From positions 393,576,001 to 393,640,000 of the forward strand of contig OZ024741.1 of assembly GCA_964016885.1 (NCBI GenBank): DNA of 64,000 nt, given 5' to 3'. Below, piece after piece: positions 7,611-63,359 of the stretch (the stretch's first letter is position 1; each line of letters opens with the position of its first letter). Origin of the DNA: Eledone cirrhosa (lineage: Eukaryota). The translations under genes were made by a program, and so were the position numbers. The notes beneath the pieces are model-generated. The model was given only the letters and a program-made list of their open reading frames with translations, searched no databases and had not been told where the DNA came from.

Positions 7611-7619
7611 TACATCACA

Positions 7620-23066: not shown

Positions 23067-23448
23067 CTGAAAAAATATTACAATAATTTACAATATTGGA
23101 GTCAACAAAACAAAATAAAATTTATATTCTAACAAACATATAATCTTCCATTGCTCAGTGAATATGTAAATGGCAGTAATAGTACTAATTTGAAAATAAA
23201 TGTTTTGATCTTAAATCAGTTCAGATTCTTGCTGTAAACAAATCTTCCCAGCACCACAATGAAATTGTGAGACATGTTAAACTGGAAATTGTGAGACTTG
23301 CTCATAATCTCCCAGTTTCTTTGTCCATTCTCTTTAGATATATGAAATTCATGTTATTTTCCTTACATTGTATTTTCTATGTGTGTGATAACATACATGC
23401 ATACATACATGCATACATACATATACATGCATACATACATACATACAT

Positions 23449-25992
23449 CAACCAAGACGCAGTGTGGCTAAAAGAAATCCAAAAGAACTATTGCTCCTAC
23501 ACTACAACAAAAACATACAAAATAAGTGAGGGTAACCTTGAGACTGTGATAAGAAAACTCCAAGATAAGAAAACACCAGGAAGGGACATGATTGTCGGCT
23601 ACTGGTACAAAAAACTGATATTCTATCGGAGGTATCTTAGCACAAACATTACTGGTCCCCAAGAACAAAGACACCCACTTGGCAAAATACTACCGACCCA
23701 TTGCATGCTAGAACCTGATGTATAAGATGTATACAGCTTGCCTTTCTCCAAGATCACTGTGAAAATAATAACATCATCACAGATGAACAAGCAGCTGGAA
23801 AGAAAGGTGTTTGGGGATGTGCTGAACAACTCCTAATCAACAAAACTGCGATGTCGGAGGTGCAACAACTTAGGAGGAATATATCTACAGTCTGACTGGA
23901 CTACAGGAAAGCTTTCAATTCTGTTCTCCACTCTTGGATGATAGAGGCCCTCCAACTTGCTAAAGTCCCAGACATTATTATCAGACCCATAGAGAAGCTG
24001 TCTTCTTCTTGGGCTACTATCCTAAAGTTAAAGACAGAGAAGGAGAACTCTATTTTCACTGATAAAATAGAATATCACAGGGGTATATTTCAAGGAGACA
24101 GTCTCTCTGTGATATTATTTATCCTGTCATTAAACCCCTTGTCCTTTCTGCTCACAGGAGGACAGAAATACGAACCTAACCCATAATTTCTTTGTGGATG
24201 ATCTGAAACTCTATGCCAAGAACATGGATGGGATGAAGAAAAATCTTGACCTGGTTACAGCATTCTCAAGGGATATAGGAATGGAGTTTGGCCAAGATAA
24301 ATGCTCATATATGACTGTAAAGCGGGGAAAAACAACAACCCAATCTAGCAACATTGTCATCAATGGCCTAACTGTTTCACCGATATCTGATGAGGACTGC
24401 TACAGATACCTGGGGATACATGAGAACATATCCTATAATGGTATCTGTAATAAAGATCACATAACCAGGGAATACTACACCCGATTAAGAAAAATATGGT
24501 CATCAGAACTCTCTGTGCACAACAAAACAGTGGCTCACAATGTGTTTGCTGTGCCTGTCCTAACACCAACGTTTGGAATATTCAATTGGACGATAGACGA
24601 AATCTGAGCAGTTGATGTTGGAACTCGAAAAATACTAAACAGTACCGGAAACTTCCACATCAACAGTGACATAGACCGCCTTTACTTGAAACATAAGCAG
24701 GGAGGCAGAGGCCTAACATCAGTCCAGACAACATTTGAATGTCGCATCATATCTCTCCGACAACATCTACGAACCTCGAAGCATAGGAGCCCGTCTCTCG
24801 AGCAAGTTTATCTGCATGAAACAGGTAAGACCATGAGAGTTGGGAAGGAACTCCTCGAAATATATTCCCCGTGTGATAATCAAAAACTCACACATCAAGT
24901 CGCTCAGCAGTATCGCAGTGAATCCATGGATGAAAAACTGCATGCTTATCAGCAAAAAATCACGCAGAGAAATGTTGCCAGGAAGCTCCAGAGTGAGAGA
25001 AATATAGATAAACAAAGCAGTCTATCTTGGACCAACAACCGCTATATTGGCTCCCACTTTGAAGGATATGCTTTTGCAATCCAAGAACAGGAAATCAACA
25101 CGAAATACCTGATTCACAAAAGAGATAGGGATGCAGGCAAAACACCAAGATGTGATAACAAGTGCAGACTCTGCAGAATTAACATCGAAGATGTAACCCA
25201 TGTCATAAGCAGCTGTCCAAAGATGTCATCGTGGTACTATCTACCTATGAGGCATGATGTAGTGGCCAAAACACTGTACAATGCAATCCGTAGAAAAGAT
25301 AGCCCCAATAATAAACACATTAAAAGCTACAGCAATGTGGAAGACATACATACACATAATATGAAAGAGTACTGCTGGAATGTTCCAGTAAAAACCCCAA
25401 TAAAATGCAAGCATAACAGACCAGATATAATGATATGGGACAGGGAAAAGAAGGCATGCACAGTAGTGGAAGTTAGCTGCCCAGCAGATGCCAATATAAT
25501 ATCAAAGATTAGTGAAAAGGAGAATATTTATTTATGCAGAACTGATGAGATATCTGCAGATACTCCACCCAGATTATATCTTCAGATTTATGCCTGTGGC
25601 TATTGGGGCACTGGGATATGTTAGTAACTGCCTCAATACAAATCTTGAAAAGCTGGGCTTCACAGGAACAGAAAGAACACAGCTAGTTAGGAAATTACAA
25701 GTACAATCCATTAATGGAACAGTAAAAATATGTAAAACATTCCAAAAATGTTGCATCTAATAAGTGCATATACACATGTACAGATACTAAGCATATACAC
25801 ATGCACACATACAACTCAAAACATCCACATCCACACATACAATAACATCCATATCTATATATGCATGCATGCAGACATACATATCTACCTTGTTGATGTT
25901 GTGTAAATTCCAATGAGAGAGTCTTGTGTCTATGTTAGAAACCGACTCTCTCTTTATTGGCAAAAATTTGTGAAATTATAAAACCAGAAGAA
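23449..25992 (+). mobile_element. R4/Dong-like non-LTR retrotransposon (RT + CCHC + restriction-like endonuclease), 5'-truncated
   Basis: LDYRKAFNSV, RGIFQGDSLS, DDLKLY, YRYLG, GGRGL, CRLC...HVISSC, RHD, NRPDI...VVEVSCP. Flanked on both sides by (CATA)n. Confidence 0.9.
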
Positions 25993-27519: not shown

Positions 27520-30500
27520 ACATGTGTGCGGGGACAAGAAATACCTGGGTTGGCACCCAGATGTGCAGATAGCCCACTGGGAGTGAGATGCCCTCTTAGC
27601 TGTTGTCACAACACTTCTCTAGGAGAGGGAACCCCCAAATAAACACCTGCGGTATTGAGGGCACCCGATGATGTTGACCAGTTTTTCTTTTCGGTACATG
27701 CTCTCCATGCTCAGAGAGTGGTATTAGTTCTGTGCAAGGCTTTTCTTCACTTTAAAAAATATCAAGCATAGGCATCGCCTTATCAATTTGAACAAATAAT
27801 TTGTTGCATTGTGGCTGGCCGTAGCCAAGAAAGGCAAAAATATTCAATGATGAACCATGATAATGTATGAATTAATGGAGGCTCTGGAACTGATGGTAAA
27901 AGTGTCTAGCCTGGCAGGTGTCCCATGGCACTGCATCCTGCCACTGCGAAGAAGTTAAAACCTATGAATATCGGTTGCTGGAACATCCTGACCTTATTAG
28001 ATTTGGTGTCTTCAGAGCCACAACCAGAAAGATCAGCTCTTGTTGCCAAAGTGCTGGGTCGATACAATATGGATATTGTTGCCTTATCTGAAACAAGGCT
28101 ACTCGAAGAAGGTCATATCACTGAAATGTCCAGTGACTACACGTTTTACTGGAGTGGCAGAGCAGCAGGATAAAAAGGGAGGAGGCAGGTGTGGCTTTTG
28201 CAATGAGAACGTCTTTGGTGTCGACACTTGACCAGTTTCAGTGTGGCATCAGTGATCATCTCATGTCAATGAGAATTCCTCTGATGTACAATCACTACCT
28301 TACCATTGTCAGTGTATATACCCCGACAATGAACTCCAATAAAGATGAGAAACTTGCTTTTTACAGGTCGCTGAAGGAACTTGTCAAAAAGATTCCTTCA
28401 ACAGACAAAATTGTCGTACTTGGTGATTTCAATGCACGTGTTGGCAGGGATTATGAGACTTGGGATGTGATCGGCAGACATGGCATAGGGAAATGTAACA
28501 GCAATGCGCTTCTCTTGCTACAGATGTGTGTGGAGTTAGATTTGTTCATTGCAAACACGATGTTCCAACAAAAAGATAAATTCAAGACAACATGGATGTA
28601 CCCTGGGTCGAAGGTGTGGCATCTGATCGACTTTGTTCTTGTGAAGAAACGTGACATGCAGGATATCAAGCATGTGCGTGTTCTGCATGGCATAGAATGC
28701 TGAAAAGACCATTGTATAGTGCGCGCCAAGGCAAACTTCGTGATCAAACCACAAACAAGAGCAAATGGTGCCAAGATTCCAAATCACTTGAATATAGATC
28801 ATATGAAAGATAAGGGTGTCAAGGAAGAGCTGTGTCGCAGGATTGAAAACATTGATTGTGCAAACAACTGGAATGACTTTAGGAGCTCAGTCTATGATGC
28901 TTCAGCAGAGGTACTTGGCTTTGTCACAAGAAAACACAAGGACTGGTTTGATGAGAAGGAAGTCAAGGCTCTGTTGGACAGAAAACGAAAGGCACTCGAT
29001 GCAGTTCTTAAAGGTTGTAGCTCTGTTGTTGACAATTATGAACGTTGTTATGAGCGTAAAGAAGGAAGTGCAGGTGAAACTCTGGGCTAAGCAAAATAGC
29101 TGGTGGAGCAACAAAGCAGATGAAGTTCAAGCAGCATCTGATGGCAACAATGTGAAACTGTTGCACACTCTACTCAGAGAAGTGTATGGCCCTTTCAGCT
29201 CACCAGTGACACCCTTAGAGATCAAAAGATGGCAAGCAGTTACTACGCGACCCAAAAGACATACTCGACAGATGGAGAGATCACTTTGATGAGCTCTTAA
29301 ACCAGCCATCCCAGGTTGATGATGATTTCATTTGCTCCATTTCTATTGAACCAGTGAAGCATGAGATGGCTGATGTACCTTCTCTTGCAGAGGCGACTTC
29401 TGCTGTGCATAAGCTGAACTGTGGTAAGTCTCCTGGTAGGGATGATCTGAGTGTAGAAGTTTTGAAGTGCGACGGTGGAAACTTCATGCAGCGCCTGACT
29501 GACCTCATGAAAAAGGTGTGGGAAGATGAGGGTATCCCACAAGATTGGAAGGATGCGCTCATGGTGATTCTCCATAAAGGAAAGGGTGGGAAAGACAAAT
29601 GTGGCAATTTTCGTGGCATATCACTTCTTTCAGTGGTTGGTAAAGTCATGTGTTGAATTTTGATGGATAGATTGATCTCAAGGGTTGCTCTGAATGTGTT
29701 GCCTGAGTCGCAGTGTGGGTTCAGAAACGAAAGAGGAACAGTGGATATGATCTTCTCTACACGGCAGCTGTAAGAAAAGTGTATCGAACAATGTAAGGAC
29801 CTTTACCAGGTCTTTGTTGACTCGACAAAGGCCTTTGACACTGTCAATTGAACTGCAAAGTTTGTGAAGATTTTGCCCTCCAAAGTTTGTGAAGATTTTG
29901 CATCTTTTTCTGGATGACATGAAGGCTTTGGTCAGTATTGGTGGTAGCATCTCTGAACCAATATCACTTGAAAATGGAGTGAAGCAGGGGGACATTCCAG
30001 CTCCAACTCTGTTTTCCTTATATTTTATGATAGTGTTTCTCATGGCATTCAGGAAAATTTGTTCGCATGGAGTTTACATGGGGTATCACACTTCAGGAAG
30101 GTTGTTCAACATCAGGTGCTTTGGTGCAAGCACAAAGGTATTAACATCTATAATCCGAGAGTTTTTGTATGCCGATGACTGCGATCTTTTTGCATACTCA
30201 CAAATTGAGATGCAGCATATTATGAACTCTTTTTCTGAAGCTTGCAGTGCTTTGGGCGTCACAATAAGCTTGGAAAAGACTGTTGTGATGTATCAGCCAG
30301 CACCTGGAAAAGAATACACTACACCAAGTGTGTACGTGTACGGAAAGAAGCTAAAAGTTGCTGACAGGTTTGTGTACGTTGGTAGTACGTTGAACACTGT
30401 ATGATGAAATATCTTTAAGAATCAAGAAAGCCAGAGTTGCTTTTGGACGGCTGCCTGAACTAGACTAGGTATCACCATCGAAACCAGGGTAAAAGTTTAT

Positions 30501-31312
30501 CTGACTTGTGTCATCTCCTCTTCGCTTTACGCTTGTGAAACATGGGTCACATACAGAAATCACCTCAAGGAACTGGAGAGGTTTCACCAACAATCTCTTT
30601 GTAAGTTACTTGGAGTGTGATGGAAAATGTTCGTCAGTGATTTGGAAATTCTTGAACGGAGCAGGTGCGTAACTATAGAGAGCATGATCTTTTGGCATCG
30701 GTTGAAGTGGTGCGGTCACGTGGTCAGGATGTCTGATGATCATATTCCAAAGCAACTTTTCCACGGAGAACTGTGTGAAGGAAGGAGACAACCGCACAAA
30801 CCAAAAATGCGGTACCGAGACTGACGAATGGGAGAAAATGACCGAGGAACGTGGGAAGTGGAGACTTTTGATCAAGTCAGGAAGTGAACACTTTGAAACT
30901 CGTCAAAGAGAACACCTAACACTGAAAATGAAGATGAGGAAAGGAGACTGTTCTGAACTGCCTGCTGTTGGGAAACATCTGGTTTGCCAGCCCTGTGGTC
31001 GAGTCTGCCTGAGTAAAGCTGGTTTGACTAGACACGAACAAAGTCATATCAGTAGACCTCATGTAGATCATGATCTGAAAAGGTCTAATGAATGTGGCAA
31101 GAAATGTGCAAGCATGGGAGGTCTTAAAAGACATATGAGAACACAGTCAGAACCAAGCAGTGGAAAGTCCCAGAGGAGCCTACAGTTGCCATGTATGTGC
31201 CAGAGGGTGCAAGTCTTTGGCTAGTTTAAAGAGCCACATTCGTGCCTCACATTTTTGAGCATTTTATCAGGCGATGGCAATGTTCGATCATGAGTTTGCA
31301 GTCATCATCATG
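27520..31312 (+). mobile_element. Near full-length RTE (BovB-like) LINE with C-terminal C2H2 fingers, pseudogenised
   Basis: CWNI.TL, ALSETRL, LGDFNARVG, HLIDFVL, NFRGISLLS, GVKQGD..APTLF, LYADD, CQPCGRVC...HEQSH; several stops and frameshifts. Confidence 0.93.
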
Positions 31313-31739: not shown

Positions 31740-34700
31740 CTTACTTTTATTCAAAAGAAAAAAAAATTAAAAAAACCTTATTTAGTAAGAAAAAAAAAGG
31801 GAAACAAAAGGAAGAAGGAATAAGGAAATATAGAAAAAAAAAGAGAGAAAGAAAGAAGAAAAAGAACGGGAAAGGGAAGGGATGGCAAGAGTTCTGGTAT
31901 CGCAGAAGAGAGGGGCTGAGGGGAAGGGTGATTGGGCTTTGGGCCTAGGGCAAAGGGGAAGGAGTGCTGCGCCCCGTGGACAAGACGGCAAAAGCATCCC
32001 CTGGGCGATAACCAGTGATACCCGCTGCAACAGTCACCCAACCTAGCGGGGCTGCCTCGTCAGACGGGCTGCCGACCTTCCGATCTTGTGGCGGAGCTCA
32101 GCAGTACGGGGTCTAAGTATACCTGAGGTCACAACAACGACACGTGTGAAGAGGAAGCGGCCGGCCAAACCGTATTGATATTTGTTAATTTTGCGTTTTT
32201 CTGCGAGGCGGGCCAAGATGCTGGGGTTTGTGGCTGAAGCGACTAAGTTGGAGGCGGAGAACGTGTTGAAGCAGGTGGCATCCCAGATGAGGGATCTATC
32301 TCCTTCGAATGGGAAGAGGGTGATTCCATTGGGGCGTTTGCCATCTCTGCAGTCCAGGCCTGCTGGCTCCAGTTGAGATGGAAAGCCAGCTGCGTCCAGA
32401 CTTCTTCTCAATATGTCGTTGAGAGTGGCATGTCGGGGGAACCGGCCTGCGCTCTGGCGGCAAGACAGGGTGCAAGCCGAACTTATTAACAACTTCCCTG
32501 CAGCAGCATTTATGTGGATCACACACGCGGAGGCCAAGGCGTTGAGCTACTCCGATGCGAGTGCACTCATCCTCTAGTAGGGTACAAGTTGATGAGGAGG
32601 GCACAGAATTGAGCTAATCACCGCTGTTGGGCTGAGAAGTGGAGTGGAGGCAGGCGAGGTGGTGTTGCTCCAAGCCAGACTCGATCCGCCCGACAGAAGA
32701 CCTGCAATTGATGTCACCCCAGTTATGTTGGATCGTAGTATACTGGGGGATAGAGAGGGCTTCGCCTGTCCAGTAGGCCAGAGCCTGTTCCATCTTGGGG
32801 GCCAGGTTAGGTTCGGCCGTCTGGATGAGAACCTCGCTGATGAGAGCACGAGAAGAGGAGATAGAGGAGAGGTAGGCAGATAATGCTAGGTCCGAAGCTG
32901 ATTGGAGGCTAAGGCTACAGAACCTCGCTGGGAGTGTCGCCTGTTGCCAGCCTGCGCTGTCAAACTAACATTGAAGATGAGTTTCGCACAGCGTCGAATG
33001 GTGGCGTCAAATTCCCCTAGAAAATCTGCGTTGGGGTGGCAAGGTGCCTTGTACAGTGTGAATGTGAGTTTGGGAAGGGTGAACCAGTCTCTCAAGAGGA
33101 AGACTGCAGGGTGAGCGTCAATGAGGCGCAGCCTTTCTGCTAATCGGTAGAAATCTGCGTGCTTGGTCTCCAGGCATTCTCTTGTGGCTTTCAGGAGAAT
33201 GGGGGAGCAGAGAATGCATGCGGCGTCCTTGAAGGTCGGCCAAGCACCGACCAGGAAGAGGTCGGAACAGAGTACGGCATTGCAGAATTCAGCATCTCCC
33301 TAGCTGATGTTGGTAACCTCAGACTTGGTTGGGTTGACCTCAAGTCCGAGGAGATTCAGAGCTGGAATGATATGTCGGAGGTCCTCAACCACCGTCTCAG
33401 CCGGCTCGCCCAAGGTCGTGTCATTGAGGTACCAGGCATTGAGGGGTAACTGGACCGACCGGGCTACGTTGTCGACTGCCAGCGCAAATAGGAACGAGCT
33501 GAGTGGATCCCTCTACTGGACACCTGTGGCGGAAGTAACCCTGTTGTCAGCGGCCAGGAGTGAGCTGGGTCTTCTGTACGAAAGGTGAACGAGGAGGTAG
33601 ATGGAGGGGGCTCGTCTGATCCCGTCTAACTCTGTTGAAGGCGTTAGTCATGTTCAGCTTTACGAGGAGGTGGGGTGACGAGGGAGGCGCGTGCTCTATG
33701 AAGTGTTTGGCCACATGAGCTGCAGCCTCACAACCGCACTTGATTCCCACTCCGAGCTGGACGGGGCTTAGCACCTCGTTCAGGTCGTCTTTGACTGACT
33801 TGCAAGTTATCTTAGCTGCAAGTCATCAGAAGACGCTACCCACCGCGATGGGGCGGACGCCTCCGTCATTCTTCCTCAGAGTGGTTAAGCTGGCTGAGAA
33901 GAAAAGATCGCAGGCATGGCTGGGCAAGTTGGCACGGAGGAGACAGTTGGTGAGGGCTGTCAATGACTGGAGCAGTCGGACCCCTGCTTCCACCGCGTGA
34001 GACGAGATAAGGTCTTGGAGGTGGCCGGGGCGCAAGCTGTCTACTCCACCACCGCTGCTACCAGGAAAAGATCTTAGGGTGGCTACCACGTCCTCGCTGG
34101 ACGCTGCCGGGGAGAGATTGCTGGCCGGGGCTGGAGCATCCCTGATGTCGGTAGGAGGGTCCAGATGTTTGAGGCGGAGTGCTGACAGAACATCCAGTGT
34201 TGGTGGGAGCACAGCGGCGCTTGAGGCCAGCACACGAACAGCTGCCGAGATGTCACCTTCAATTAGTTTGAGGTTGACTCTGTCCCGGAGACATTTCCTG
34301 CTGTCGTGGGTAGACTGGAGTCATTGTGTTGGCACAAGTGGGCAGCACAAGAGTGCCAAGAGGCTTGGGGGCGAAGGGTCGTAGAAAGAGGTGATATTGC
34401 CCTTGAGCCTCGAAGCCAGGGAGGGGCCCGATCTGTCTCTCACTGTTGGGTTCCCCACAAATGGGATCCTGAGTAAGAGAGTAGCAAAACTGAACAATCT
34501 GGTCCAGTACCGTGGATTGCCCGAGTCAAGTACTTGGTCGATTAAAGTTACTAGCGCTTCAGCCACGGGAGTGCGGGCAGACCTGGGTATCCTGGTGATG
34601 ACTTTCCCTGGCTGCCTGAGGCGGAAGATCGCCACCAGACACTCGTCCGAGTTGAACGCGTTCAGGTCCCTGGCAAGTCAGGCGCCCGTGACCACCACGG

Positions 34701-35640
34701 TGTCAGGGTGGATAGACATGATCGGCAGTGCCACCAGTGCAAAGAATCCGATGCGCATCTTGTGAGTTTGACGCAAGAGAGGTGGAAGAATTGTTGTAGT
34801 AGGAGCAATTCCTTCCTCTCTTGCACTTGTTGTGCGTGTCGCACGAGTGGCATTGGTCAACTATCTTTGGGGTGGAAGGTTGAGGAAAGGCAGGCATTGC
34901 GTTCAGAGGTGCAGGAGGTCAAATCTTCCGCCATATGGCTAAGGAGAAGAGTTGCCTGGACCGCATGAAATAGGCTGGGACAAGCTAGACTGGACGGTTG
35001 TAAACTTTGCCTAGGGGCGAGTGCACGCATGGTGTTGAGACGAATGCCGTGTGTGTCCGGGCACGTTAAGCAGCAAGTTCGATAACAGTGAAGGAGAAAA
35101 AAAAGGGGGGGGGGAGAAAGGGGAGAAAAAAGAGAAGAGAAGAAAAGAAAAAAAAAGTTTTTTTTTAGAGCAATGAGTCACATAGACGAAGGAGAAAGGA
35201 GGTAAAAAATTGAAGAAGGAGCCATGAGGTCCTGAGATGCACCGAAACGAAGAAGTGCCGAGATGGACGTCGTGTATGTGTGTGTGTGTGTGTGCGAGCA
35301 TGCATTCAAAACGGCAAATTCGACAAAAGTGTAAAGTTGGAGTTGAAAGTAAAGCACCGAAGAGAGGAAGCCGAAACTGGAGAATTCCGAGAAGTGTCAG
35401 AGACTGTGAAGGAAAAAGGAACAAGTATGTGATGTGTTCACAAGACACGTGTCAAGCGCGATCACGAACATTTAGTACAGGAGTGGCACCAAACTGGGCC
35501 CCGAAGCTGTCGATAAAAGAGACCTTCTTCAGTACAGGCTGTTGTGGTGTGACCCGAAAGAGCTTTGACCGCCGCCTCCAGCAGGTCAAGCAACTACATA
35601 GAGGCCCTCACTCCCTTGCTTCAAGCAAACACAATTGTAG
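31740..35640 (-). mobile_element. CRE-clade non-LTR retrotransposon (RT + RLE), near full-length, GC-rich
   Basis: GGVRPIAVG, QLGVG...GCEA..H, NAFNRV, RHATLND...LEP.GL...DGKRP.G.TL.PF..DRSLIWDAT. Frameshifts present. Ends approximate. Confidence 0.9.
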
Positions 35641-36563: not shown

Positions 36564-39010
36564 GATATATACGCATATATATACACACATATATATACGC
36601 ATATATATACATCGATATATACATTATATTATATTATGACAAAGGAGGAAAATATACTTAGGATTAAAATGAAAGTTGCATTTAAACAAGGGGGAGAGAA
36701 TTTAAATTATTTATATAAGGTAAGTTTTTAAAATATTATATAATAATAGGGTTTTATAAATATACGAGATTAAGTACATCTAATATTATGGGTGGTATTA
36801 ACTATTTTTATTTATAACTAAAAATTATATAGTTCAGGGGAAAAGAATTTATTAGCGAGGTTAAAGATAGATAAATAAATAAATAAATAAATAAATAAGT
36901 AGATCAGCAGTTTTAATTATATAGAAACCGATAGGTATTTTATATAATTATTGTAGATATAGAAGAGACATGTATAACTTGCTATTTATATTAAATTAAA
37001 TTTATTTATATACAATCCAAGGTTTTGGTAGGTGACATAATAGTATGTAGGAATTATAATGGATAAATCAGATAAACATAGTGGAGAAGGGAAAATGGTT
37101 AACACCTGTTTTCTTACAGATTAAAATTGAAATAGAATATAAGGAATAACGGAAGGTATGCCAGAATAAATATGTAATCGAAAAAATAAATGATTGAGAA
37201 AATAGAGAATAAAAATAAAAATATAAAATATATAATATATAAAATAGCAGAATGCCTTGAACATTTTTTTAATATAAAATAATTGTTTTTACTTTTGGCA
37301 CAAGGCCAGCAATTATCCCAGTGCATTACTGGTACTTTATTTTATCGACCCCGTAAGGATGAAAGGCAAAGTTAACCTCGGCGGGATTTGAACTCAGACC
37401 GCAAAGGTACGTAACTAATAATGACACTTATTAAGTTGTTACTAGATACATATGTATATATAAAACCATATATGTATACACATATATACATACATAAATA
37501 CATATACAACCATACAAATACATATATGATCAGTTTAGCTAAATATTCTGTGAAAAGACCAAGAGAATTTGTGCAAACAACTGCTGAATATCTCAGAACA
37601 TTTATTAATAATAGATTTCCTATTATTAATAATATAAAGAATTTCGGTAGTACAGAGATTACAATTATTAGAAATAGAAGTATTTACATATGGTAGGGCA
37701 TTAACTAGTTTATGCCAAGATAGCGAGTAATCTATGTTCATATTAACTGTGACAAAGGAGTGGAGAATCTTTTATCTATTCTCTTAAACGTATGTCTATG
37801 GTTGTACCATTTTTCTTTAAATTTAAAGGAAGTAGCACCGATATGATTATACGACTTACCTTTAGTTTCAACATTGCATCTATACACTAGATTACGGTCA
37901 AAACAGTTATTATTTAGCTGGAAAGAATGACTGCTTTTACAATTACAATTATTTATGTTATTATTTGATGGTGCTCTCTGTGATCAAGGTGTGTGAGATT
38001 ATTATCGTTTATGTTATTTGTATAGTTAATTGATAAATCATTAGTATTATCATTATTACTATCGTTATTTCTATAGTTAGCAATGGGGGTTAATTCTATC
38101 TGATTAATTGCAAGATTTCTATTATTGAATTTAGCTATATTTTGGGCAATATTCATAGTTGTTGAGTATGTTGAGTATGAGTTTAGTAGTATGCCTGTTA
38201 AACATCTGGTAATATATATGGGTTCGTGGAAAACATTTATCAAGAACCTGGAAAAACTGGTGAGCCAAACTACTTTTAATTCCTGGAGATAGTGGTGGAG
38301 AATACTATAAAATAGATCAGGAATGGGATTTACTATTAAATTTATTATTTTTATTTTCATATGAGTTATGTTAATTATAAGACTGATTTATTCTAATTTT
38401 ACAGTTTCGGTTATTATTATTATTATAATTGTTATTTGTATTGATATTAGAGGAATGATTATCCTTATATGAGGGGGTATAAATATTCTTATCTATGTAT
38501 TTTATTTTATCAGAGTAACCTGCCCTGTTTAACGCATCGTTATAATTGTTGGCCTTATTGTCAAAAATATCCTTATTGGCAGAGAGTCTGGAGATTCTAA
38601 GCTGAACACTGTTAACTATAGTCCTCTTAACGTTTTTAGGGTGGTTGGAAAAGAAACTAACATAATTGAGGTTTTCATTCAATTTATGGAATGGGTAGTA
38701 GAGGCCAGGTTTAAGATTTAATGTTATGTCTAGGAAGTTGACTATTCTATTATTATTCTCAATTTCAAGTTTAAGGCCATAATTACTATAAAAGTCAATT
38801 ATAATTTTCTTTTTTCTATTAAGGGCACTATTGTTAGTTAATACAAAAAGAGCATCATCACGATATAAACCGCCGGCAATTTCCAGCAGTTTTCTGTGGA
38901 TGATGTTGAGGATGAAAATACCAACGAGGTCAGTAACTTGAGCTGAGTTCGTGGACCCCATGGTAATATCTAAATTTTCAGGTCTATCAGCTCTGGTCTA
39001 AAGATCGAAA
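36030..39010 (-). mobile_element. Penelope-like element (RT C-half, GIY-YIG, long AT-rich 3' region with hammerhead), ending in (TA)n
   Basis: DITMGS..SAQVTDLVG, GLYRDDAL, NFLDITL, SNHP, CNC.......NNC, YIGATS, CNLCTTE. SINE inserted at 37280-37415. Confidence 0.9.
36173..36250 (-). ncRNA. Type I hammerhead ribozyme motif (sense to SLC24 intron)
   Basis: TATTTTAT CTGATGA GGGCATGC..TTTATGT tac ACATAAA..GCATCCCC GAAA TATATA TA ATGAAATA. 8-bp stem I, palindromic stem III. Confidence 0.8.
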
Positions 39011-39029: not shown

Positions 39030-40310
39030 CCTCGCAGTAAGGATGATGTTTATTTCATCGCTTGAATGATCAGTGTGTTTTGTTGCATAAGATAAGGCTT
39101 TGTTGAGTAAACTTGATCTCTAAAGTTTTCCAAAGCGGCCTCAAAATTAAAACCATCAAATCTTCCAGTTAGGGTTGCACGCACATCTGCTCGCCTCAGT
39201 TTGGTGACACCAATGCCTTTAGGTGCTTTCACTCTACTCATACGAATTCTTTTGCACATGGAGGCACATGGCTTAGTGATTAGAGCATTGGCCTTGCAAT
39301 CGAAAGGTTGTGAGTTCAATTCTCAGACCGGGTGATGTGTTGTTTCCTTGAGCAAGACACTTTATTTCACATTGCTCCAGTTTACTCAGCTGTAGAAATG
39401 AGATGATAGGGACTGGGGTCCCTATCATTCCACTGCAAAGTGGTCGTGGAGGTGCCACGGCAAAAAAGCACCCAGCACTCACTGTAAATGAGGTTGGTGT
39501 TAAGAAGGGCATCCAGCTGTAGAAATCAAGCCAGAATCAGTTCCCGTCCCACCCTTGCAAGCAGGGAAAAAGCGAACGTAAAATGAAATGAAATGATGAA
39601 ATGATTCTCATCTTGAACTTTCCTCGCGCTAATTTTTGGTCAGTGCCATATTCTGCACTATGCGACACATGCACTGTACACACATCAGTAAGAGTAATAA
39701 TGAAATCAATCATTTGTCCATACTTGGATCTTGGATGATACCAGGTAGCTTTGTATTTGTGCTTCTGACGGAAAAGAGTGTTGCAGATGGTTAAGTTGAG
39801 TTTTGAGCAAAGTTCAAGCAACTTCAGGCCACTAATGTTCATTTTACCAATACCAAATGGACCAATGGCGCCCCACGTCTCGTGATCACTACCCACACGA
39901 ACATTAAAATCACCGACAAGTAATAGCTTATCGTCAGAAGGTGTGCATGCAATGGCAGCAGGAAGAGACTCTTAGAAAGAATCAAGGACCATCTCACTGA
40001 TGATATTTCTGTTAACTGATCTTCTCCTGCCAAACATGTTTCAGATAAAGCTGCTATGTCTATATTTAATCTTCTGAGTTCTTTTGTCACAAATGCAGTT
40101 CTACGTTCTGGACGTCCAGACGAGTTTCTGTCCAGGAGTGTCCTAACGTTCCAACAACAAATGATGAGTTTGACTCGATCTTTCGCGTATTTTGAGGCAA
40201 AGTAAGCTCAGGGCACCTGTGTGTAGACTTGTGACTATAAGCTTCCAACAGGTCAGGTCTGCACATGTTACCCCTCGTCTATCACCGCAGTATTTAGAAA
40301 TAGGATAGAC
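39030..40310 (-). mobile_element. RTE LINE 5' fragment (APE domain), interrupted by a SINE
   Basis: IDIAALSETCL, GDFNVRVG, TICNTLF, TWYHPRSK...IDFI. Confidence 0.8.
39260..39605 (+). mobile_element. tRNA-derived SINE with RTE-derived tail
   Basis: A box tggcttagtgattag, B box gagttcaattc, core ccttgagcaagacactttatttcac, 3' end shared with RTE tails. Confidence 0.8.
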
Positions 40311-40556
40311 GAAGAAAGATGTAAGAGGCATCTGTACACCAGTATATTATCGTGGTAAACGCTTGTACAACACGAGTACCACTCTCTGAGTATCCGTAGC
40401 TGTAGCCCAGTATTAATAATGATAGTAATATATATGTATGTGTGTGTGTGTTTGTGTGTGAGTGTGCATGTGTGAGTGAATGTGTATGTGAGTGTTTGTG
40501 TGTGTATGTGTAGGTATGCATGTGTGTCATTGAGAAGGAAACTCCTTGAAACAACT

Positions 40557-41478
40557 CCCATCCATCCATCCATCCATACATACATCCATCCATCCATCCA
40601 TCCATCCATCCATCCATACACCCATCCATCCATCCATCCATCCATACATCCATCCATACACCCATCCATCCATCCATCCATACACCCATCCATACACCCA
40701 TCCATCCATCCATACACCCATCCATCCATCCATCCATCCATACATCCATCCATACACCCATCCATCCATCCATCCATCCATACACCCATCCATACACCCA
40801 TCCATCCATCCATACACCCATCCATCCATCCATCCATCCATACATCCATCCATACACCCATCCATCCATCCATCCATCCATCCATCCATCCATACACCCA
40901 TCCATCCATCCATCCATCCATCCATACACCCATCCATCCATCCATCCATCCATCCATACACCCATCCATCCATCCATCCATACACCCATCCATCCATCCA
41001 TCCATCCATCCATCCATACACCCATCCATACACCCATCCATCCATCCATACACCCATCCATCCATCCATCCATCCATCCATCCATACACCCATCCATCCA
41101 TCCATACACCCATCCATCCATCCATACACCCATCCATCCATCCATCCATCCATCCATCCATCCATACATACACCCATCCATCCATCCATCCACCCATCCA
41201 TACACCCATCCATCCATCCATCCATCCATCCATCCATCCATCCATCCATCCATACATACATCCATCCATCCATCCATCCATCCATCCATACACCCATCCA
41301 TCCATCCATCCATCCATACACCCATCCATCCATCCATCCATCCATACATCCATCCATCCATCCATACACCCATCCATCCATCCATCCATCCATCCATCCA
41401 TCCATCCATCCATACATCCATCCATACATCCATCCATACACCCATCCATCCATCCATCTATACATACATACATACATA
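40557..41478. repeat. About 920-bp compound (CCAT)n microsatellite with ACAC/ACAT interruptions
   Basis: Directly visible. It generates the spurious long WMDG/HPSI ORFs. Confidence 0.98.
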
Positions 41479-41479
41479 C

Positions 41480-41697
41480 AAAGTGGACGTGTAGGCGCCA
41501 TGGAAAAAAGCACCCAGCACTCACTGTAAATGAGGTTGGTGTTAGGAAGGGCATCCAGCTGTAGAAATCAAGCCAGAATCAGTTCCTGTATGAGCAAGGC
41601 ATGGTCAGCCGACCAGACACTGCCCACAACAAGACAACCCGTCTAACCCATGCTAGCATGGAAGAACGGATGTAAAACGGTGATGATGATGATGATA
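41480..41697 (+). mobile_element. RTE 3'-tail fragment
   Basis: aaagcacccagcactcactgtaaatgaggttggtgttaggaagggcatcc... ending in (GAT)n. Confidence 0.85.
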
Positions 41698-48180: not shown

Positions 48181-48516
48181 TTATAAATAATGCTATGTTA
48201 ATGTGACTGCTAGCTAATAGCAGCCAGGTCATGCACTTTAAATGCAATGGAACTTCTCCACAAAATGTGTGTAAGATATAGCTTACAATAAAGAGTGAAT
48301 AAATGTCACTAAACCACACATGGTTTCTGAGATAGCTGTAATATAATTACAGCTTAAAACATTCATAGAAAGACATGTACATGTTTATCATATTGTACAT
48401 AATCATATCACATATGCCTTTGTGTTATGAATCATAGTATGTTAGTATTAGTGTTATGTATATATATATTTATATATATATATATATATATAAATATATA
48501 AATATATATATATATA

Positions 48517-48870
48517 TTGTTATGCTTTGGGAGGGTCATGTTGCCACACACAAAAACAAGATGGCGTAGGACAGAACAAAGGAGAGGCACAAAAACAAAG
48601 AAAAGAATCCCCAGTTACTGAAGAGGTCACAGAATGTGTGACGAAAGAACTTTGACAATATATGAACAACCGTCCGGTTATGGAACCAACCAATCAACCG
48701 GAAATTTATAAATTCTTAAATTTATAAATTTAATTTATAATAAATTGGAGTGAAAGCAACTGGTGCGTGTGTTTCTTATTGGCAACATGACCCTCCCAAA
48801 GTATAACAATATCGGTTTCAACACACGATTTCAGATAAAGAATCTTGCTAAACAAATTCAGAAACGAAAT
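48517..48870 (+). mobile_element. Non-coding hammerhead mini-element family A, copy 1, in (TA)n
   Basis: Highly similar to 60893-61215 (inverted). First 29 bp are an inverted copy of 48780-48809. No ORF. Confidence 0.85.
48613..48657 (+). ncRNA. Minimal type I hammerhead motif (family A)
   Basis: AGTTA CTGAAGA G GTCACA gaatg TGTGAC GAAA GAAC TT TGAC. Confidence 0.65.
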
Positions 48871-56170: not shown

Positions 56171-56330
56171 TTATATATATATATATATATAAGTATTAAG
56201 TTGTTAAACAATATTCGATGATTATGTCAAAGAATGAGTTTTACAGTAGATTGGAAGCACTCAACGGGAAAATAATTTTCAGGAGTTATTAATATATAAG
56301 TATTAATAAAATAGATGTTCTTTTGATCAA

Positions 56331-56391
56331 TTACATTTTCTTATACATATTTCGGATGTAAAACAGTACGTCCACATCAGACAAAATATAA
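56331..56391 (-). ncRNA. Hammerhead motif with mutated core (CTGATGT)
   Basis: Mirror copy of 59730-59790 with the conserved A9 changed to U. Confidence 0.6.
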
Positions 56392-58911
56392 TGATACATG
56401 ACATACCCTGAGATATTAAATGGTTAAGATTTAATCAAGGTAGTGATTACCCGATAGAAAATTTTATTTATATAATATCTGTGTGAGAGTGCGAAAACGT
56501 AATGAATTCATTAGAGAGTGTGTGAGTAAGAAAAAAACGTTGCATACTTAAAGTGTTCTAAAATTTTAAATTGTATGATACTACGATATAATATATCTAG
56601 GGAAACGTCTCATGAATCATAGCAGCTAGTGATAGCCACTGGAAAAAGATTTATAAGGAGGGAAAGATAAAGTGTGTGTGTGTATGGGGGGGGGGGGATT
56701 CGAAAGTTAAACGGTTTAATTTATAATATTAGGGTGAAGACTCCAGATTTCACGATTATTTGCTATTTATTTATATATTATTTATATAAATTCGATAAGT
56801 GTGTTATCATTTCTAAACATCTGGATTGTGAGAATAACATTTTAAAGGATTTAGCTGGCACGTAAAGAATGAAATATTATACTGTTGATTAATTACCTAA
56901 ATCTAAACTTTAACAAATATCTCAATGTAAAGCTATGTAAAGCTTTTGAAGGTATGTAAAGCTTTTGAAGTACTTATTGTTATAAATATTTAAATAACTA
57001 TTATGTATAAAGGTATATATTAATGAGTCAGTATGTATAAGGTAAATAATACCGACGAAGATAAAAATAAAATAAAATAAAATAATATGTTACGGATAAA
57101 ATTTATACATATGTATAACTGGGTGTAAATGTACTAATTATTCTTCACATTTATATATAAGTTTGAATCCGTCTCAAATTTAGATTTTATAGTGCAGTAA
57201 GTATATTTAAAAGAAATATATGCTATATTATACTATAAATAATAGATCAAAAAGTCATTAAACATTTGGAGTTATGGATAAGTTTCGTAAAAGTTTTTGG
57301 ATTGGGTATTAAAACTAAAATTTAAAAGAGATTACAAATGTATTAAAAATTCACAGTTAAATAAATTCAATAGATATGTAAGGATTATGTAATGTACTAA
57401 ATTATAGATAAATGATGGTGTTGATCAAAGTTAACAAATAAAGTTGTATGTATCAATGTTTAGGCATGCTAATTGAAATATTGTCATTCATTCTAACGTT
57501 GTTTTTTCTATAGATATTTATAAAATAAAGCAATATTAAAGGCCATTGATGTTTTTTACTGTTGATTATATATTCCTGGTAACCGAGTTGTTATTGGTTC
57601 TTTCTTTCTTGTTTCATGTGAGGCTAAAAAAGTGGACATAGCTTTATGGAGGTAATTAGAGAATAATTCACTTTTTTTGTTAAATAAGGTCTCATAATTA
57701 TTAATAATCAACAGGGTCTCCATTGTACAGAGCGGGCAGTTATTTGATATACTAGAGTTGCGGTAAATTCCACAGTTCCGAAGTTTTGTCCAAAGAATGG
57801 AGTATTCCAGATTCTTCTCTTTTAAAGACCATATGAGCTGTGATAAAGACGTGGATGATTTCTTCTTAGAGTTCGAGAATGAGTATTTATGGTTCGCGAA
57901 ACGAAGTTTGAATGTGGACGAAAAACCAAACCAACATAATGATCATAATAATAGAGTTAACATTAATGATACTAAACCAAATTGTAATTGTAGAAATAAA
58001 AGTAATTGCCCTTTGCAAAATAATTGTTTAGATAGTAATTTGGTTTATAAATGCACCGTAAAAACTGACCATAAAACATACAATTACATTGGATCAACCT
58101 CGTCCTCGAAAAAACAACGTTAGAATGAATGACAATATTTCAATTAGCATGCCTAAACATTGATACATACAACTTTATTTGTTAACTTTAATCAACACCA
58201 TCATTTATCTATAATTTAGTACATTACATAATCCTTACATATCTATTGAATTTATTTAACTGTGAATTTTTAATACATTTGTAATCTCTTTTAAATTTTA
58301 GTTTTAATACCCAATCTAAAAATTTTTATGAAATTTATCCATAACTCTAAATGTTTAATGACTTTTTGATCTATTATTTATAGTATAATATAACATATAT
58401 TTCTTTTAAATATACTTACTGCACTATAAAATCTAAATTTGAGACGGATTCAAACTTATATATAAATGTGAATTTTACGCTGTACTTTCGATCTCTTATT
58501 TATTTATTTATTTATTTATAATATAATGTTTTATAATATATATGTAGTTATATATTGTATTTTAAATATTTTAAAATATACCTACCATACTTCTATATAC
58601 ATGATTCAAATATTGAGAAAATATCCAAACTAAAAATATTATAGACATTATTTTGAACTTTATACATGCACTCATTATTCGTTTTTCTTATATGTATATA
58701 TATATTTAAATGTAACAGTATGTTAAGAGTATACTACATTAATAATACCTAATATATATCTATATATATATACATCCCTATATCTAATAATATGTTGATA
58801 TCTTGGTTGAAGAATAATTAGTACATTTACACCCAATTATACATATGTATAAATTTTATCCGTAACATATTATTTTATTTTATTTTATTTTTATCTTCGT
58901 CGGTATTATTT

Positions 58912-59090
58912 TGGCAGTATCAGTAGAGAGTCGGACGCCATGCTTTCCAGCATAGTTACGTCCCTTTACGGTCTGTGTTCAAATCCCGCCGAGGTTAACT
59001 TTGCCTTTCATCCTTACGGGGTCGATAAAATAAAGTACCAGTAATGTACTGAGTAATTGCTGGCCTTGTGTCAAAAGTAGAAACAGTTAT
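58912..59090 (+). mobile_element. Deu/Nin-type SINE inserted in the right arm only
   Basis: Left arm shows the empty site at about 57040-57050. TTATTT occurs on both sides of the insert. Confidence 0.9.
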
Positions 59091-59729
59091 TTACCTTATA
59101 CATACTGACTCATTAATATATACCTATATACATAATAGTTATTCAAATATTTATAACAATAAGTACTTCAAAAGCTTTACATACCTAATATGTTGAGATA
59201 TTTGTTAAAGCTTAGATTTAGGTAATTAATCAACAGCATAATATTTCATTCTTTACCTGCCAGCTAAATTCTTTAAAATGTTATTCTCACAATCCAGATG
59301 TTTAGAAATGATAACACACTTATCGCATTTATATAAATAATATATAAATAAATAGCAAATAATCCTGAAATCTGGAGTCTTCACATTAATATTATAAATT
59401 AAATATTTTCAAAGTCTAACCGTTTAACTTTCGACCCCCCCCCCCACACTTTATCTTTCCCTCCTTATAAATCTTTTTCCAGTGGGTATCACTGGCTGTT
59501 ATGATTCATGAGACGTTTCCCTAGATATATTATATCGTAGTATCATACAATTTAAAATTTTAGAACACTTTAAGTATGCAACGTTTTTTTCTTACTCACA
59601 CACTCTCTAATGAATTCATTACGTTTTCGCACTCTCACACAGATATTATATAAGTAAAATTTTCTATCGGGTAATCACTACCTTGATTAAATCTTAACCA
59701 TTTAACATCTCAAGGTATGTCATGTATTA

Positions 59730-59790
59730 TTATATTTTGTCTGATGAGGACGTACTGTTTTACATCCGAAATATGTATAAGAAAATGTAA
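59730..59790 (+). ncRNA. Type I hammerhead motif (PLE 3' region)
   Basis: TTATATTTTGT CTGATGA GGACGTA ctgttt TACATCC GAAA TATG TA TA AGAAAATGTAA. Confidence 0.75.
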
Positions 59791-59861
59791 TTGATCAAAA
59801 TGTAATTGAACATCTATTTTATTAATACTTATATATATATATATATATATATTATAGAAGG

Positions 59862-59912
59862 AGCTTCTACAGGACTAGTACTGTTTCATTCAGATGAAAT
59901 CTTCAGGAAGCT
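59862..59912 (-). ncRNA. Type I hammerhead motif (family B)
   Basis: Exact reverse complement of 61445-61495. Confidence 0.8.
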
Positions 59913-60393
59913 GGGTATCATATTAAGTTCTGGTATTTATACATTTAGGTAGTGGTAAGGGAGGGGTGGTGGATGGGGGGGGGGGTATTTAGATACACAG
60001 GATCACTTCATGGCACAGACCGTTTTTTCTTTGGGGAGTGGTCAATTAGCCAGAGTGCTTTTTTGAAATAAATAAATAAGTAAATAAATAAATAAATAAA
60101 TGAATAAATAGATAAATGAATAAATAAATAAATAAAAAAAAAAAATAAAAAAAAAAAAAATAAAAACCCCAAGAATAGTAATTCAATATATAGTAGGGAA
60201 ATTTTTTAGGTGGGTTGGTAATAGAAATGAAGCATTTAACAAGACCGAATCATGGCACAGACTGGGGTGAGTGGTCAAGTTAACATACAAGCCACAGGTG
60301 GCCAGAGTGTTTTTGTAGGATGGAAAGAATAAAATATATTTACATATTCACAACCACATACAAAAACACTTACACACACACATACATATATAC

Positions 60394-60426
<33 letters not shown>

Positions 60427-60440
60427 CACACCTACACATT

Positions 60441-60482
<42 letters not shown>

Positions 60483-60660
60483 TATGTGTGTGCGTATACA
60501 CATACACATACACATACACACACATACATATACACACACACACACATACATACACATATATACATATATACACAAGAAAAACACAAACACACAAATATAC
60601 ACACACACGCGCATACACATACACACACATATATATATCTACACATACACACGTGCGCAT

Positions 60661-60691
<31 letters not shown>

Positions 60692-60892
60692 TGTATACAT
60701 ATATATATATATACACACCTACATGTACGTATATATCTCGGTATAAACTATACTATACATACACATACATACATATGCACACACATACATACACATACAT
60801 ACACACACACATACATTCACACATATATATACATATATAAACATACACACACACATACATATATAATCTCATATATATATATATATATATAT

Positions 60893-61314
60893 TTCGTTTC
60901 TGAATTTGTTTAGCAAGATTCTTTATCTGAAATCGTGTGTTGAAACCGATATTGTTATACTTTGGGAGGGTCATGTTGCCAATTAGAAACACACGCACCA
61001 GTTGCTTTCACTTCAATTTATTATAATAAATTTATAATAAATTTATAAATTTATAAATTTCTGGTTGGTTGGTTGGTTCCACAACCAGATAGTTGTTTAT
61101 ACATAGTCATAGTTCTTTCGTCACACACTCTGTGACCTCTTCAGTGACTGGGGATTCCTTTCTTTGTTTCTGTGCCTCTCCTTTGTTCTGTCCTACGCCA
61201 TTTTGTTTCTGTGTGTGTGTTGTGTGCTCAGTCTGCGCATGCGCCACATCCGGGTGTCTGTGTGTGTTTATGTTCATTTGAAAGCAACTGGTGCGTGTGT
61301 TTCTTATTGGCAAC
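60893..61314 (-). mobile_element. Hammerhead mini-element family A, copy 2
   Basis: Inverted homologue of 48545-48870. Its 5' end (61279-61314) is an inverted copy of 60975-61010. Confidence 0.85.
61105..61149 (-). ncRNA. Minimal type I hammerhead motif (family A)
   Basis: AGTCA CTGAAGA G GTCACA gagtg TGTGAC GAAA GAAC TA TGACT. Perfect stems I and II. Confidence 0.75.
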
Positions 61315-61444
61315 GGCCTGTGCCATGAAGTGGTCCTGTGTATCTAAATACCATCCTACCCCCAAAAATCCACCCCCCCCCCATCCACCACCCCTCCCTT
61401 ACCACTACCTAAATGTATAAATACCAGAACTTAATATGACACCC

Positions 61445-61495
61445 AGCTTCCTGAAGATTTCATCTGAATGAAACAGTACTAGTCCTGTAGAAGCT
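61445..61495 (+). ncRNA. Type I hammerhead motif (family B)
   Basis: AGCTTC CTGAAGA T TTCA tc TGAA T GAAA CAG tactagtc CTG TA GAAGCT. GUA triplet. Confidence 0.8.
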
Positions 61496-61581
61496 CCTTC
61501 TATAAAATGAAAAAAATTTACTCTGCCATGTATTGAGTACCTTACTTACTGTGGTTATCCCCGACTCAACCCGGGACCTAC

Positions 61582-61582
<1 letters not shown>

Positions 61583-61652
<70 letters not shown>

Positions 61653-61654
61653 TG

Positions 61655-61686
<32 letters not shown>

Positions 61687-61813
61687 TGTATATATATATA
61701 TATATATATGCACATGTATATATATATATATATATGCACATGTATATATGTATATATATATATATATGCACATGTATATATATATATATATATGCACATG
61801 TATATATATATAT
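61583..61813. repeat. (TA)n tract with six periodic TGCACATG interruptions
   Basis: Directly visible; spacing about 26-34 bp. Confidence 0.95.
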
Positions 61814-61924
61814 AGTTCGAAATAACCCCCAAAAAATCAAAAAACAATAAACAAACAAATGTAGGAGTAAATGTTACATGGCATTATTAGCTTCATGCTT
61901 GGTAGAATATATATATATATATAT

Positions 61925-62624: not shown

Positions 62625-63359
62625 TACTAATAAGATTAGAAGATGTCTATTTTTATGGCATGTGAGACATGTGTGGGATAAAAAATGAAAACTACAGCTC
62701 ACACCTATGCAGGTTTAGCTGGCTTCCCACAAAGTTTTGCGGGTGTTTTAACCATAAGGGCTCCAGTCCTATCCCAGAGAGCAATGTGAAATGAGATGTC
62801 TTGTTTGAGAACATAAAGCACTGCCTGGTCCACAGATTGAATCCCCAACTTTGTGATCATGGTTCCAACACCAAGAGTACCAAACCACATGACTCCACAT
62901 TATTGTTATTACACCAAGGTCGATAAACTAAAGTACCAGTAATGCACTGGGTAATTACTGGCCTTGTGCGAAATGTAGAAACAATTCTTGTTATTACACC
63001 GACAAACAATCCTTCAATACTTTACCACCTTAAACTTAACACACAAACACAACACATAACATAAATAGAACTCAGCATGAAGCAAGTAAAAGAAGACATA
63101 CCAAAGGAATTAAACCACACAAACTAAAAACTGATAAACATTTGTATCAAACAGAAATCACAAAACAATAAAAAAAAATCCCTATACAATGCATTAATAT
63201 ATCAAACAGTGGCTAAAACACACCACATAATGCTTTCTAATTTAGGAACATGGGCAGTAATTTGTGATGAGGGGAAAGTCAATTATATTGCCCCCAGTAC
63301 TTAATTTGTACTTTCTCTGCCAATGGTTTTGTCTATCTTTAACCCTCTCTCACCATATA

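What the first reader, a model, noticed from the sequence alone, without database searches (positions are those of the whole stretch)
59730..61813. Ribozyme-dense composite: four hammerheads in 1.8 kb, nested foldbacks
Seen: PLE hammerhead (+, 59730) converging across a TA run on family B (-, 59862), then family A (-, 61105) and family B (+, 61445). The two B motifs are identical over 51 nt and have the most canonical fold (6-bp stem I, 4-bp stem III, GUA). The A/B junction at 61312-61314 shares AAC with no TA spacer. Inference: A and B may have been co-mobilised, and two same-strand ribozymes could excise an approx. 1.24-kb minus-strand RNA (about 61110 to 59868) capable of circularising like a retrozyme.
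Basis: partly seen in the sequence, partly recalled or inferred. Interest (0 to 1): 0.75.

Follow-up and report, generated by a model that had tools for sequence, protein, structure and literature searches.

The report
Nested Penelope retroelement ends in microsatellite
The four hammerhead-ribozyme motifs are the end pieces of three Penelope-like jumping genes piled into TA repeats, one of them riding inside another and likely copied along with it through RNA; this is ordinary retrotransposon nesting, and no sign of a new circular RNA was found.

Summary
All four hammerhead motifs are real. Each is the 3' end of a coding Penelope-like element (PLE). B and C have Hydra-clade features; A is Neptune-like. 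The two B motifs are the mirror-image arms of one two-armed insertion: one arm tailed, one tailless, joined at the AAC microhomology. A sits in a TA run inside B's long 3'UTR. The same A-in-B arrangement occurs at five other loci, so co-mobilisation is supported. In two sister loci A's 62-bp fold-back is A-to-G hyper-edited, which points to an RNA stage left uncut at A. The retrozyme-like circle is not supported: no tandem unit, 0 of 7 composite arms end at a cut site, and the junction would not rebuild a ribozyme. B is not the most canonical fold: U·U replaces G10.1-C11.1 and helix II has 3 bp. A weak excess of B copies starting at its cut site (19 of 85) was not repeated in two other families. 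The scan has noted such Hydra nests and editing scars before at other places in this genome. Verdict: known kind, low-to-modest interest.

The parts
56190..59832 (.). Family C: two-armed, decayed Hydra-type PLE; tailed arm on minus (56190 to about 57940), tailless arm on plus (about 57940-59832); GIY-YIG endonuclease remnants at the centre
   Evidence: self-alignment and translations; 1143 candidates in the genome
59734..59786 (+). Hammerhead C (core 59741, predicted cut after 59779), minimal type I with self-complementary loop III, G·G in stem I
   Evidence: relaxed descriptor
59831..59850 (.). TA run: right end of C and left target of the B insertion
59849..60892 (-). B left arm, tailless: distal part of the microsatellite-rich 3'UTR of a Hydra-type PLE
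   Evidence: colinear with B copies downstream of the ORF
59862..59912 (-). Hammerhead B, left arm (predicted cut after 59868)
60893..61279 (-). Passenger A: 3' end (pLTR 61279-60949 plus 56-nt tail 60948-60893) of a Neptune-like PLE inserted in a TA run of B's 3'UTR
   Evidence: empty sites
61105..61149 (-). Hammerhead A, minimal type I (extra G before G10.1-C11.1, 6-bp helix II, 2-bp helix III; predicted cut after 61110)
   Evidence: architecture as in PMC4209133
61279..61314 (+). Remnant (36 of 62 nt) of A's own inverted tailless arm, complementary to 60975-61010
   Evidence: full 62-nt form in L082, L087, L093
61312..61314 (.). AAC microhomology: joint between the two arms of the B insertion
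61312..61582 (+). B right arm, 5'-truncated, with tail (about 61509-61582) that leads into the ORF start in full-length copies
   Evidence: L294
61445..61495 (+). Hammerhead B, right arm (predicted cut after 61489); U·U at 10.1/11.1, 3-bp helix II
61583..61814 (.). TA-rich microsatellite, right target of the B insertion; source of most of the nested foldbacks

Best explanation
The locus is a nest of three Penelope-like element ends in TA microsatellites, and the B-A-B block was likely laid down in one two-armed insertion, copied from RNA of a B copy that already carried A in its 3'UTR. Shown: A, B and C are each the 3' end of a family with a PLE-type open reading frame and C-terminal GIY-YIG endonuclease (reverse-transcriptase motifs seen for A and B; only endonuclease remnants for C); each family has a tailed and a tailless end class; A sits in a TA run that is empty in other B copies; the A-in-B form recurs at five other loci. 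Inferred: the B endonuclease cut both strands of the TA run beside C; reverse transcription began at the two internal start sites, giving a short tailed arm (271 nt) and a long tailless arm (about 1.47 kb) that ran through A's hammerhead; the arms were joined at 3 nt of microhomology. The hammerheads are the normal pLTR motifs of these elements. They are likely weak or dimer/protein-dependent and were not needed to define this insertion's ends.
For: ORFs upstream of A (L081: 4094-bp tandem, YVDD, GIY-YIG; many copies) and of B (L082, L294, L282-L293); endonuclease remnants in C. Two end classes and TA flanks. Empty site: 0 of 11 other ORF-selected B copies that span the site carry A there. Composites: window, L082, L087, L089, L090, L093/L295. 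L087 and L090 have the window's geometry (short or inverted tailed arm facing a tailless arm); L089 has the reverse. A-to-G changes confined to A's 62-bp fold-back: 11 of about 20 A versus 0 of 141 outside in L082, 6 versus 0 in L087; 1 such change in 21 free A copies. The tandem/inverted/tail anatomy and TA bias are described in PMC8557442; two-strand cleavage, two internal RT starts and use of uncut RNA in PMC11167929.
Against: The window's own A copy is unedited, so its RNA stage is inferred from structure, not from scars. The two B arms differ by a 21-nt deletion and 3 substitutions, and the right arm lacks one mark (position 46) found in most other composite arms, so it could come from a second B RNA. 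L082 and L087 share 6 edited sites, so they may reflect one editing event. No target-site duplication can be read in TA runs. Clade calls rest on motifs; no tree was built. Pfam gave only a weak RVT_1 hit for A and nothing relevant for B or C.
Confidence: 0.88

Rival explanations
1. A and B act as a heterologous ribozyme pair that excises a 1242-nt RNA, which is circularised (by RtcB or similar) and acts as a retrozyme-like unit.
For: Both motifs are on the minus strand with intact cores. Doubly cut RNAs have ligatable ends, and RtcB circularises retrozyme monomers in vitro (PMC7229834 passages). B stem I covaries across families.
Against: 0 of 7 composite arms start at A's cut or end at B's cut; no tandem of this unit among fetched loci; 0 of 17 non-full-length A copies start at A's cut (read by eye); the joined ends do not re-form stem I; A is a minimal motif of the kind that did not cut as a monomer in PMC4209133; edited sisters were copied through A's cut site.
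Confidence: 0.05
2. The B-A-B block is a non-autonomous DNA transposon (MITE) with long terminal inverted repeats and a TA target duplication.
For: 136-nt arms at 99% with TA at both ends.
Against: The arms are unequal (tail on one side only), copies are 5'-truncated at scattered points, and both B and A lie directly downstream of RT-endonuclease ORFs.
Confidence: 0.02
3. A, left B and right B inserted independently at this locus, or the composite spread by DNA duplication or gene conversion.
For: All target TA runs; A has entered B 3'UTRs independently elsewhere (L081, L112); the two B arms are not identical.
Against: The same A 5' inversion junction is found at the window and L082 and by alignment at L087 and L093; the A-tail/B junction recurs on several contigs with different outer ends; editing scars need an RNA stage; the AAC joint has no TA spacer.
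Confidence: 0.05

Closest known systems
Hydra clade of C-terminal EN+ PLEs (Craig et al. 2021, PMC8557442; Hydra-1_Obim listed in its File S1)
   Same: B has RWR (for RWK), DKT, CxCX5C linker, no CCHH, CxxC and CxH around the conserved E and N, a hammerhead, and (TA)n targeting; C has the same linker and CxxC.
   Different: B is about 4 kb with a roughly 2-kb microsatellite-rich 3'UTR (Hydra usually under 3 kb; Hydra-1_Obim 2507 bp); its hammerhead has U·U at 10.1/11.1; one lineage carries a passenger PLE. The paper's sequence files were not held, so identity with Hydra-1_Obim is untested.
Neptune (or Nematis) clade PLEs
   Same: A has a C-terminal GIY-YIG with two cysteines between the GIY and YIG halves, a CX4CxxC linker, partial tandems, a tail that overlaps the ORF start, and TA targeting.
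   Different: Neptune versus Nematis was not resolved by a tree.
Minimal PLE hammerheads (Cervera and de la Pena 2014, PMC4209133)
   Same: A matches: extra nucleotide before 10.1, G10.1-C11.1, long helix II, 5-bp helix I, tiny helix III. Pairs of motifs on opposite strands 100-700 bp apart were already noted there.
   Different: B lacks G10.1-C11.1 and has a 4-bp helix III with an 8-nt loop.
Metazoan non-LTR retrozymes (PMC7229834; bioRxiv 10.64898/2026.07.22.740005)
   Same: Type I hammerheads; PLE ancestry.
   Different: Retrozymes are head-to-tail repeats of 150-450 bp with the same ribozyme in each unit; here there are two unrelated ribozymes, a 1.24-kb non-tandem interval and coding parents.
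PAc Poseidon element of Anolis (Frangieh et al. 2024, PMC11167929)
   Same: Two RT start sites defining a tail, tail inside the ORF start, AT-rich targets, uncut RNA as main template.
   Different: Different clade; mechanism here is inferred, not assayed.

Membership tests
EN+ PLE | Single ORF with RT and C-terminal GIY-YIG endonuclease | tested here: met
   A: L081 and many copies; B: L282-L294; C: endonuclease remnants only. Motifs read by eye; Pfam weak.
EN+ PLE | pLTR/partial tandem, inverted 5'-truncated arm, one-sided tail | tested here: met
EN+ PLE | Hammerhead in the pLTR | tested here: met
   (motif only)
Hydra clade (B) | CxCX5C linker, no CCHH, CxxC and CxH flanking E and N | tested here: met
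   translations against section 11 of PMC8557442
Hydra clade (B) | RWK and DKT motifs | tested here: met
   RWR and DKT in L294; RWK is present as RWR
Hydra clade (B) | Short length (generally under 3 kb) | tested here: not met
   ORF about 2.2 kb plus 3'UTR about 2 kb; the paper gives this as typical, not strict
Hydra clade (B, C) | Placement in the Hydra clade by RT phylogeny | not tested
Neptune/Nematis (A) | CX2-5CxxC linker plus CCHH in the endonuclease | tested here: met
   L081 translation against passages
Neptune/Nematis (A) | Clade by RT phylogeny | not tested
   no tree built
Type I hammerhead (B) | CUGANGA, GAAA, UH core with three helices | tested here: met
   26,697 pattern matches, control 0; compensatory stem I change
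Type I hammerhead (B) | G10.1-C11.1 pair and stable helix II | tested here: not met
   U·U in the window and in most listed matches; helix II probability 0.01
Type I hammerhead (A, B, C) | Self-cleavage | not testable with these tools
   indirect test by 5' ends of copies was weak for B and negative for A and a B sister family
Non-LTR retrozyme | Head-to-tail tandem of a 150-450-bp unit with the same hammerhead | tested here: not met
Non-LTR retrozyme | Monomer ends at ribozyme cuts and circle restores the ribozyme | tested here: not met
   0 of 7 composite arms; junction fold
Non-LTR retrozyme | Expressed as linear and circular RNA | not testable with these tools
   no RNA holder listed
MITE/TIR DNA transposon | Symmetric fixed termini, no RT parent | tested here: not met

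The most novel reading that the evidence does not exclude
The B-type hammerhead, with U·U in place of the conserved G10.1-C11.1 pair and kept in over 26,000 genomic copies, cuts in the germ line, and its 3' cut product is sometimes reverse-transcribed, leaving copies that start at the cut site. Together with ADAR-type scars in passenger fold-backs, the genome would hold a fossil record of both ribozyme cleavage and RNA editing of PLE transcripts, and Hydra 3'UTR microsatellites would act as landing pads that let unrelated PLE ends hitch-hike.
Probability: 0.25. Interest if true: 0.6.

Novelty: new member of a known kind. Interest (0 to 1): 0.27.

Why it matters
As a system it is ordinary: PLE ends in TA repeats. 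Its use is as a natural test case. A passenger ribozyme inside another element's transcript was copied through uncut several times, which fits the in vitro report that PLEs use unprocessed RNA. The edited sisters show A-to-G changes fixed in inherited DNA. B offers an abundant non-canonical hammerhead (U·U closing helix II) that is simple to assay, and the role of PLE hammerheads is still open in the papers read.

Tried and rejected
Rfam at gathering threshold: 0 matches in the window, so no help. Single-strand folds are not better than shuffles. Pfam: only RVT_1 below cut-off for A and an irrelevant weak hit for B. Sequencing runs: no RNA holder listed. Contigs of 4 of the 5 listed runs, of unrecorded type, were laid on part of the locus; they are mixed repeat copies, no piece spans the stretch, and no joint matched the proposed circle or the AAC junction; this says nothing either way. 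Cut-site footprint test: B 19 of 85 truncated tailed copies start within -8..-5 of the anchor (cut at -6; binomial p 0.004 against uniform; 7 of 18 for TA-run junctions, 7 of 29 other, 5 of 38 inverted), but windows -18..-21 (15) and -29..-32 (22) are as high, microhomology is not modelled, and only the first 100 of 210 matches were fetched (101 copies found, 16 set aside as internal deletions or longer). Sister family B': 2 of 30 within one base of the cut, as chance would give (30 of 796 matches analysed). A: 0 of 17 (by eye). My first idea that A and B were non-autonomous families, and that B and C were Neptune, was dropped. MITE reading rejected. An alternative terminal hairpin that would block B's stem I is predicted at only 0.07. 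Paper searches listed no paper on a PLE carried in another PLE's 3'UTR or on edited PLE copies; the library is partial, so this is not proof of absence. Sequence look-up and near-place look-up in earlier findings were blank.

Full report
Observation. The window is G000:C2:393576001-393640000 of a 3.0-Gb animal genome; it looks octopus-like by my recall of its repeats, which no call establishes. The 59741 motif passes only a relaxed descriptor. Rfam finds none. The B motifs lie in inverted arms of 136 nt at 99%, with 65 identical bases around the motif. AAC is shared at 61312-61314. Most of the other fold-backs are TA and CA microsatellites.

Three repeat families. B, A and C give 911, 366 and 1143 first-look candidates (40 scored each). 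In the fetched copies A and B each show two 3' end classes, with and without a tail (56 nt for A, about 65-75 nt for B), nearly always followed by TA runs; C shows the same asymmetry in the window. This is the PLE anatomy described in PMC8557442 (passages): partial tandems, an inverted 5'-truncated arm, a one-sided tail.

Coding parents. Upstream of A lies an RT plus GIY-YIG frame; L081 holds a 4094-bp tandem whose ORF begins in the pLTR and crosses the tail. Its CX4CxxC linker and paired cysteines fit Neptune or Nematis (passages). B is the end of a roughly 2-kb 3'UTR behind an ORF with RWR, DKT, YRDD, a CxCX5C linker, no CCHH, and CxxC and CxH motifs; these are the Hydra features in section 11 of PMC8557442, whose File S1 lists Hydra-1_Obim with (TA)n preference (two rows per term seen; sequence files not held). 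C is a two-armed element from about 56190 to 59832 with Hydra-type endonuclease remnants at its centre. These calls rest on motifs read by eye; Pfam was weak and no tree was built.

The composite. In B copies without A the site is a plain TA run. Of 24 other ORF-selected B loci, 11 span the site and 0 carry A there, so A-in-B is a minority lineage. It occurs in the window and at five other loci: L082, L087 (both arms), L089, L090 and L093/L295 (the exact pattern gave 5 matches including the window, and L082 was found by alignment and). In L082, L087 and L295 the passenger is whole (62-nt inverted arm, 331-nt body, tail) with B 3'UTR on both sides. The window's left arm stops 36 nt into that inverted piece, where the AAC microhomology joins it to a short tailed B arm. 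L087 and L090 show the same tailed-versus-tailless layout with different joints; L089 has the tail on the long arm. The composite B arms checked share three subfamily marks. The AAC joint is therefore the centre of a two-armed insertion.

RNA stage. In a B transcript the passenger's inverted piece can pair with its own 3' part over 62 bp. In L082 that stretch has 11 A-to-G changes among about 20 A, with 0 among 141 A outside (Fisher p 5e-12); L087 has 6 versus 0 (p 2e-6); their inverted pieces carry 3 and 6 more in transcript sense; L090 and L093 have one each on the main strand; 21 free A copies have one in all. This is the pattern expected of ADAR editing (established knowledge; an earlier scan note, e1-8671701, reported it elsewhere in this genome and gave me the lead). 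Caveats: the two edited loci share six sites and may descend from one edited RNA, and the window's copy is unedited. The duplex encloses A's hammerhead, and these copies read through its cut site, so their templates were uncut there. That agrees with PMC11167929 (parts 1-2 of 4), where the protein cut and extended both strands, started at two internal sites that define the tail, and used mainly unprocessed RNA.

The ribozymes. A fits the minimal PLE hammerhead of PMC4209133 (parts 1-2 of 4), a type that did not cut as a monomer there. C has a self-complementary loop III and a G·G in stem I. B has good helices I and III but U·U at 10.1/11.1 and a 3-bp helix II; the full fold has probability 0.001 in the ensemble. 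It is still likely selected: a B-type pattern has 26,697 matches against 0 for the reversed control, loop II and N7 vary, and stem I shows a compensatory C-G to A-U change among the 30 loci examined (by eye). An indirect test for cleavage was weak: 19 of 85 truncated tailed B copies start within the four positions around the cut (p 0.004 against uniform), but two other windows are as high, and neither A (0 of 17) nor a B sister family (2 of 30) repeats it.

The circle. A double cut would give 1242 nt, but its ends come from unrelated ribozymes and the joined junction does not rebuild stem I. Retrozymes are tandem units of 150-450 bp with one ribozyme (PMC7229834 passages; bioRxiv 10.64898/2026.07.22.740005 part 1 of 5). 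None of the 7 composite arms starts at A's cut or ends at B's cut (starts at A positions 116, 298, about 323, or beyond A; ends at the tail, the tailless site, or far upstream of the cut). An incidental by-product RNA cannot be excluded, because RNA could not be examined.

Density. Four or more motifs in about 3 kb occur in 4 of 29 B-selected loci, 1 of 29 A-selected, 0 of 18 C-selected and 3 of 30 unselected B-type loci. Shared TA targeting and paired arms explain this. Earlier scan notes describe the same kind of Hydra nest at other places in this genome; they are unchecked and are not counted as support.

Verdict. New member of a known kind; interest 0.27. What remains worth a bench test is cleavage by the U·U variant B and the editing record in the passenger. 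PMC13282606 (passages) counts Penelope-like families in Octopus vulgaris and does not mention ribozymes or nesting. Searches listed no paper on this passenger arrangement, within a partial library.

Noticed in passing
window 48514-48868: A second family A insertion: short inverted tailless arm plus tailed arm in a TA run; its hammerhead has a UU triplet and a stem I mismatch.
   Followed up: partly
window 38371-38997 (+): ORF fragment with YRDD resembling the RT of a Hydra-type PLE (by eye).
   Followed up: no
window 58912-59086: SINE-like insert (recalled as an octopus-type SINE) in the right arm of family C, absent from the left arm; a relative at about 62918-62989.
   Followed up: partly
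L084 about 6850-7760; L106; L115: Other, unrelated inserts in the same TA run of B's 3'UTR (a partial tandem of about 620 bp in L084; a fold-back in L106): the site is a repeated landing pad.
   Followed up: partly
L081 2830-8697; L112 about 1100-1210: Independent A insertions next to or inside B 3'UTR sequence; L081 holds a 4094-bp A tandem whose ORF starts in the pLTR and runs through the tail.
   Followed up: partly
G000:C2:103770916-103771158: Inverted A pair whose hammerhead GAAA box reads as a G run in both arms, an editing-like scar that destroys the core.
   Followed up: no
genome-wide: 26,697 B-type hammerhead matches; many are tiny inverted pairs whose centre lies 5-20 nt upstream of the core; loop II varies while U·U at 10.1/11.1 is mostly kept.
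   Followed up: partly
window 61487-61501: Hairpin just 3' of B's cut site, next to the tailless end, kept in sister families; could mark an RT start site.
   Followed up: partly
window 1171-3923, 6696-7388, 23189-25624, 28137-31224, 32043-34968: Decayed LINE-type ORF fragments of several kinds (by eye).
   Followed up: no
window about 40300-41560: Long tetranucleotide (CATC-type) microsatellite giving spurious ORFs.
   Followed up: no
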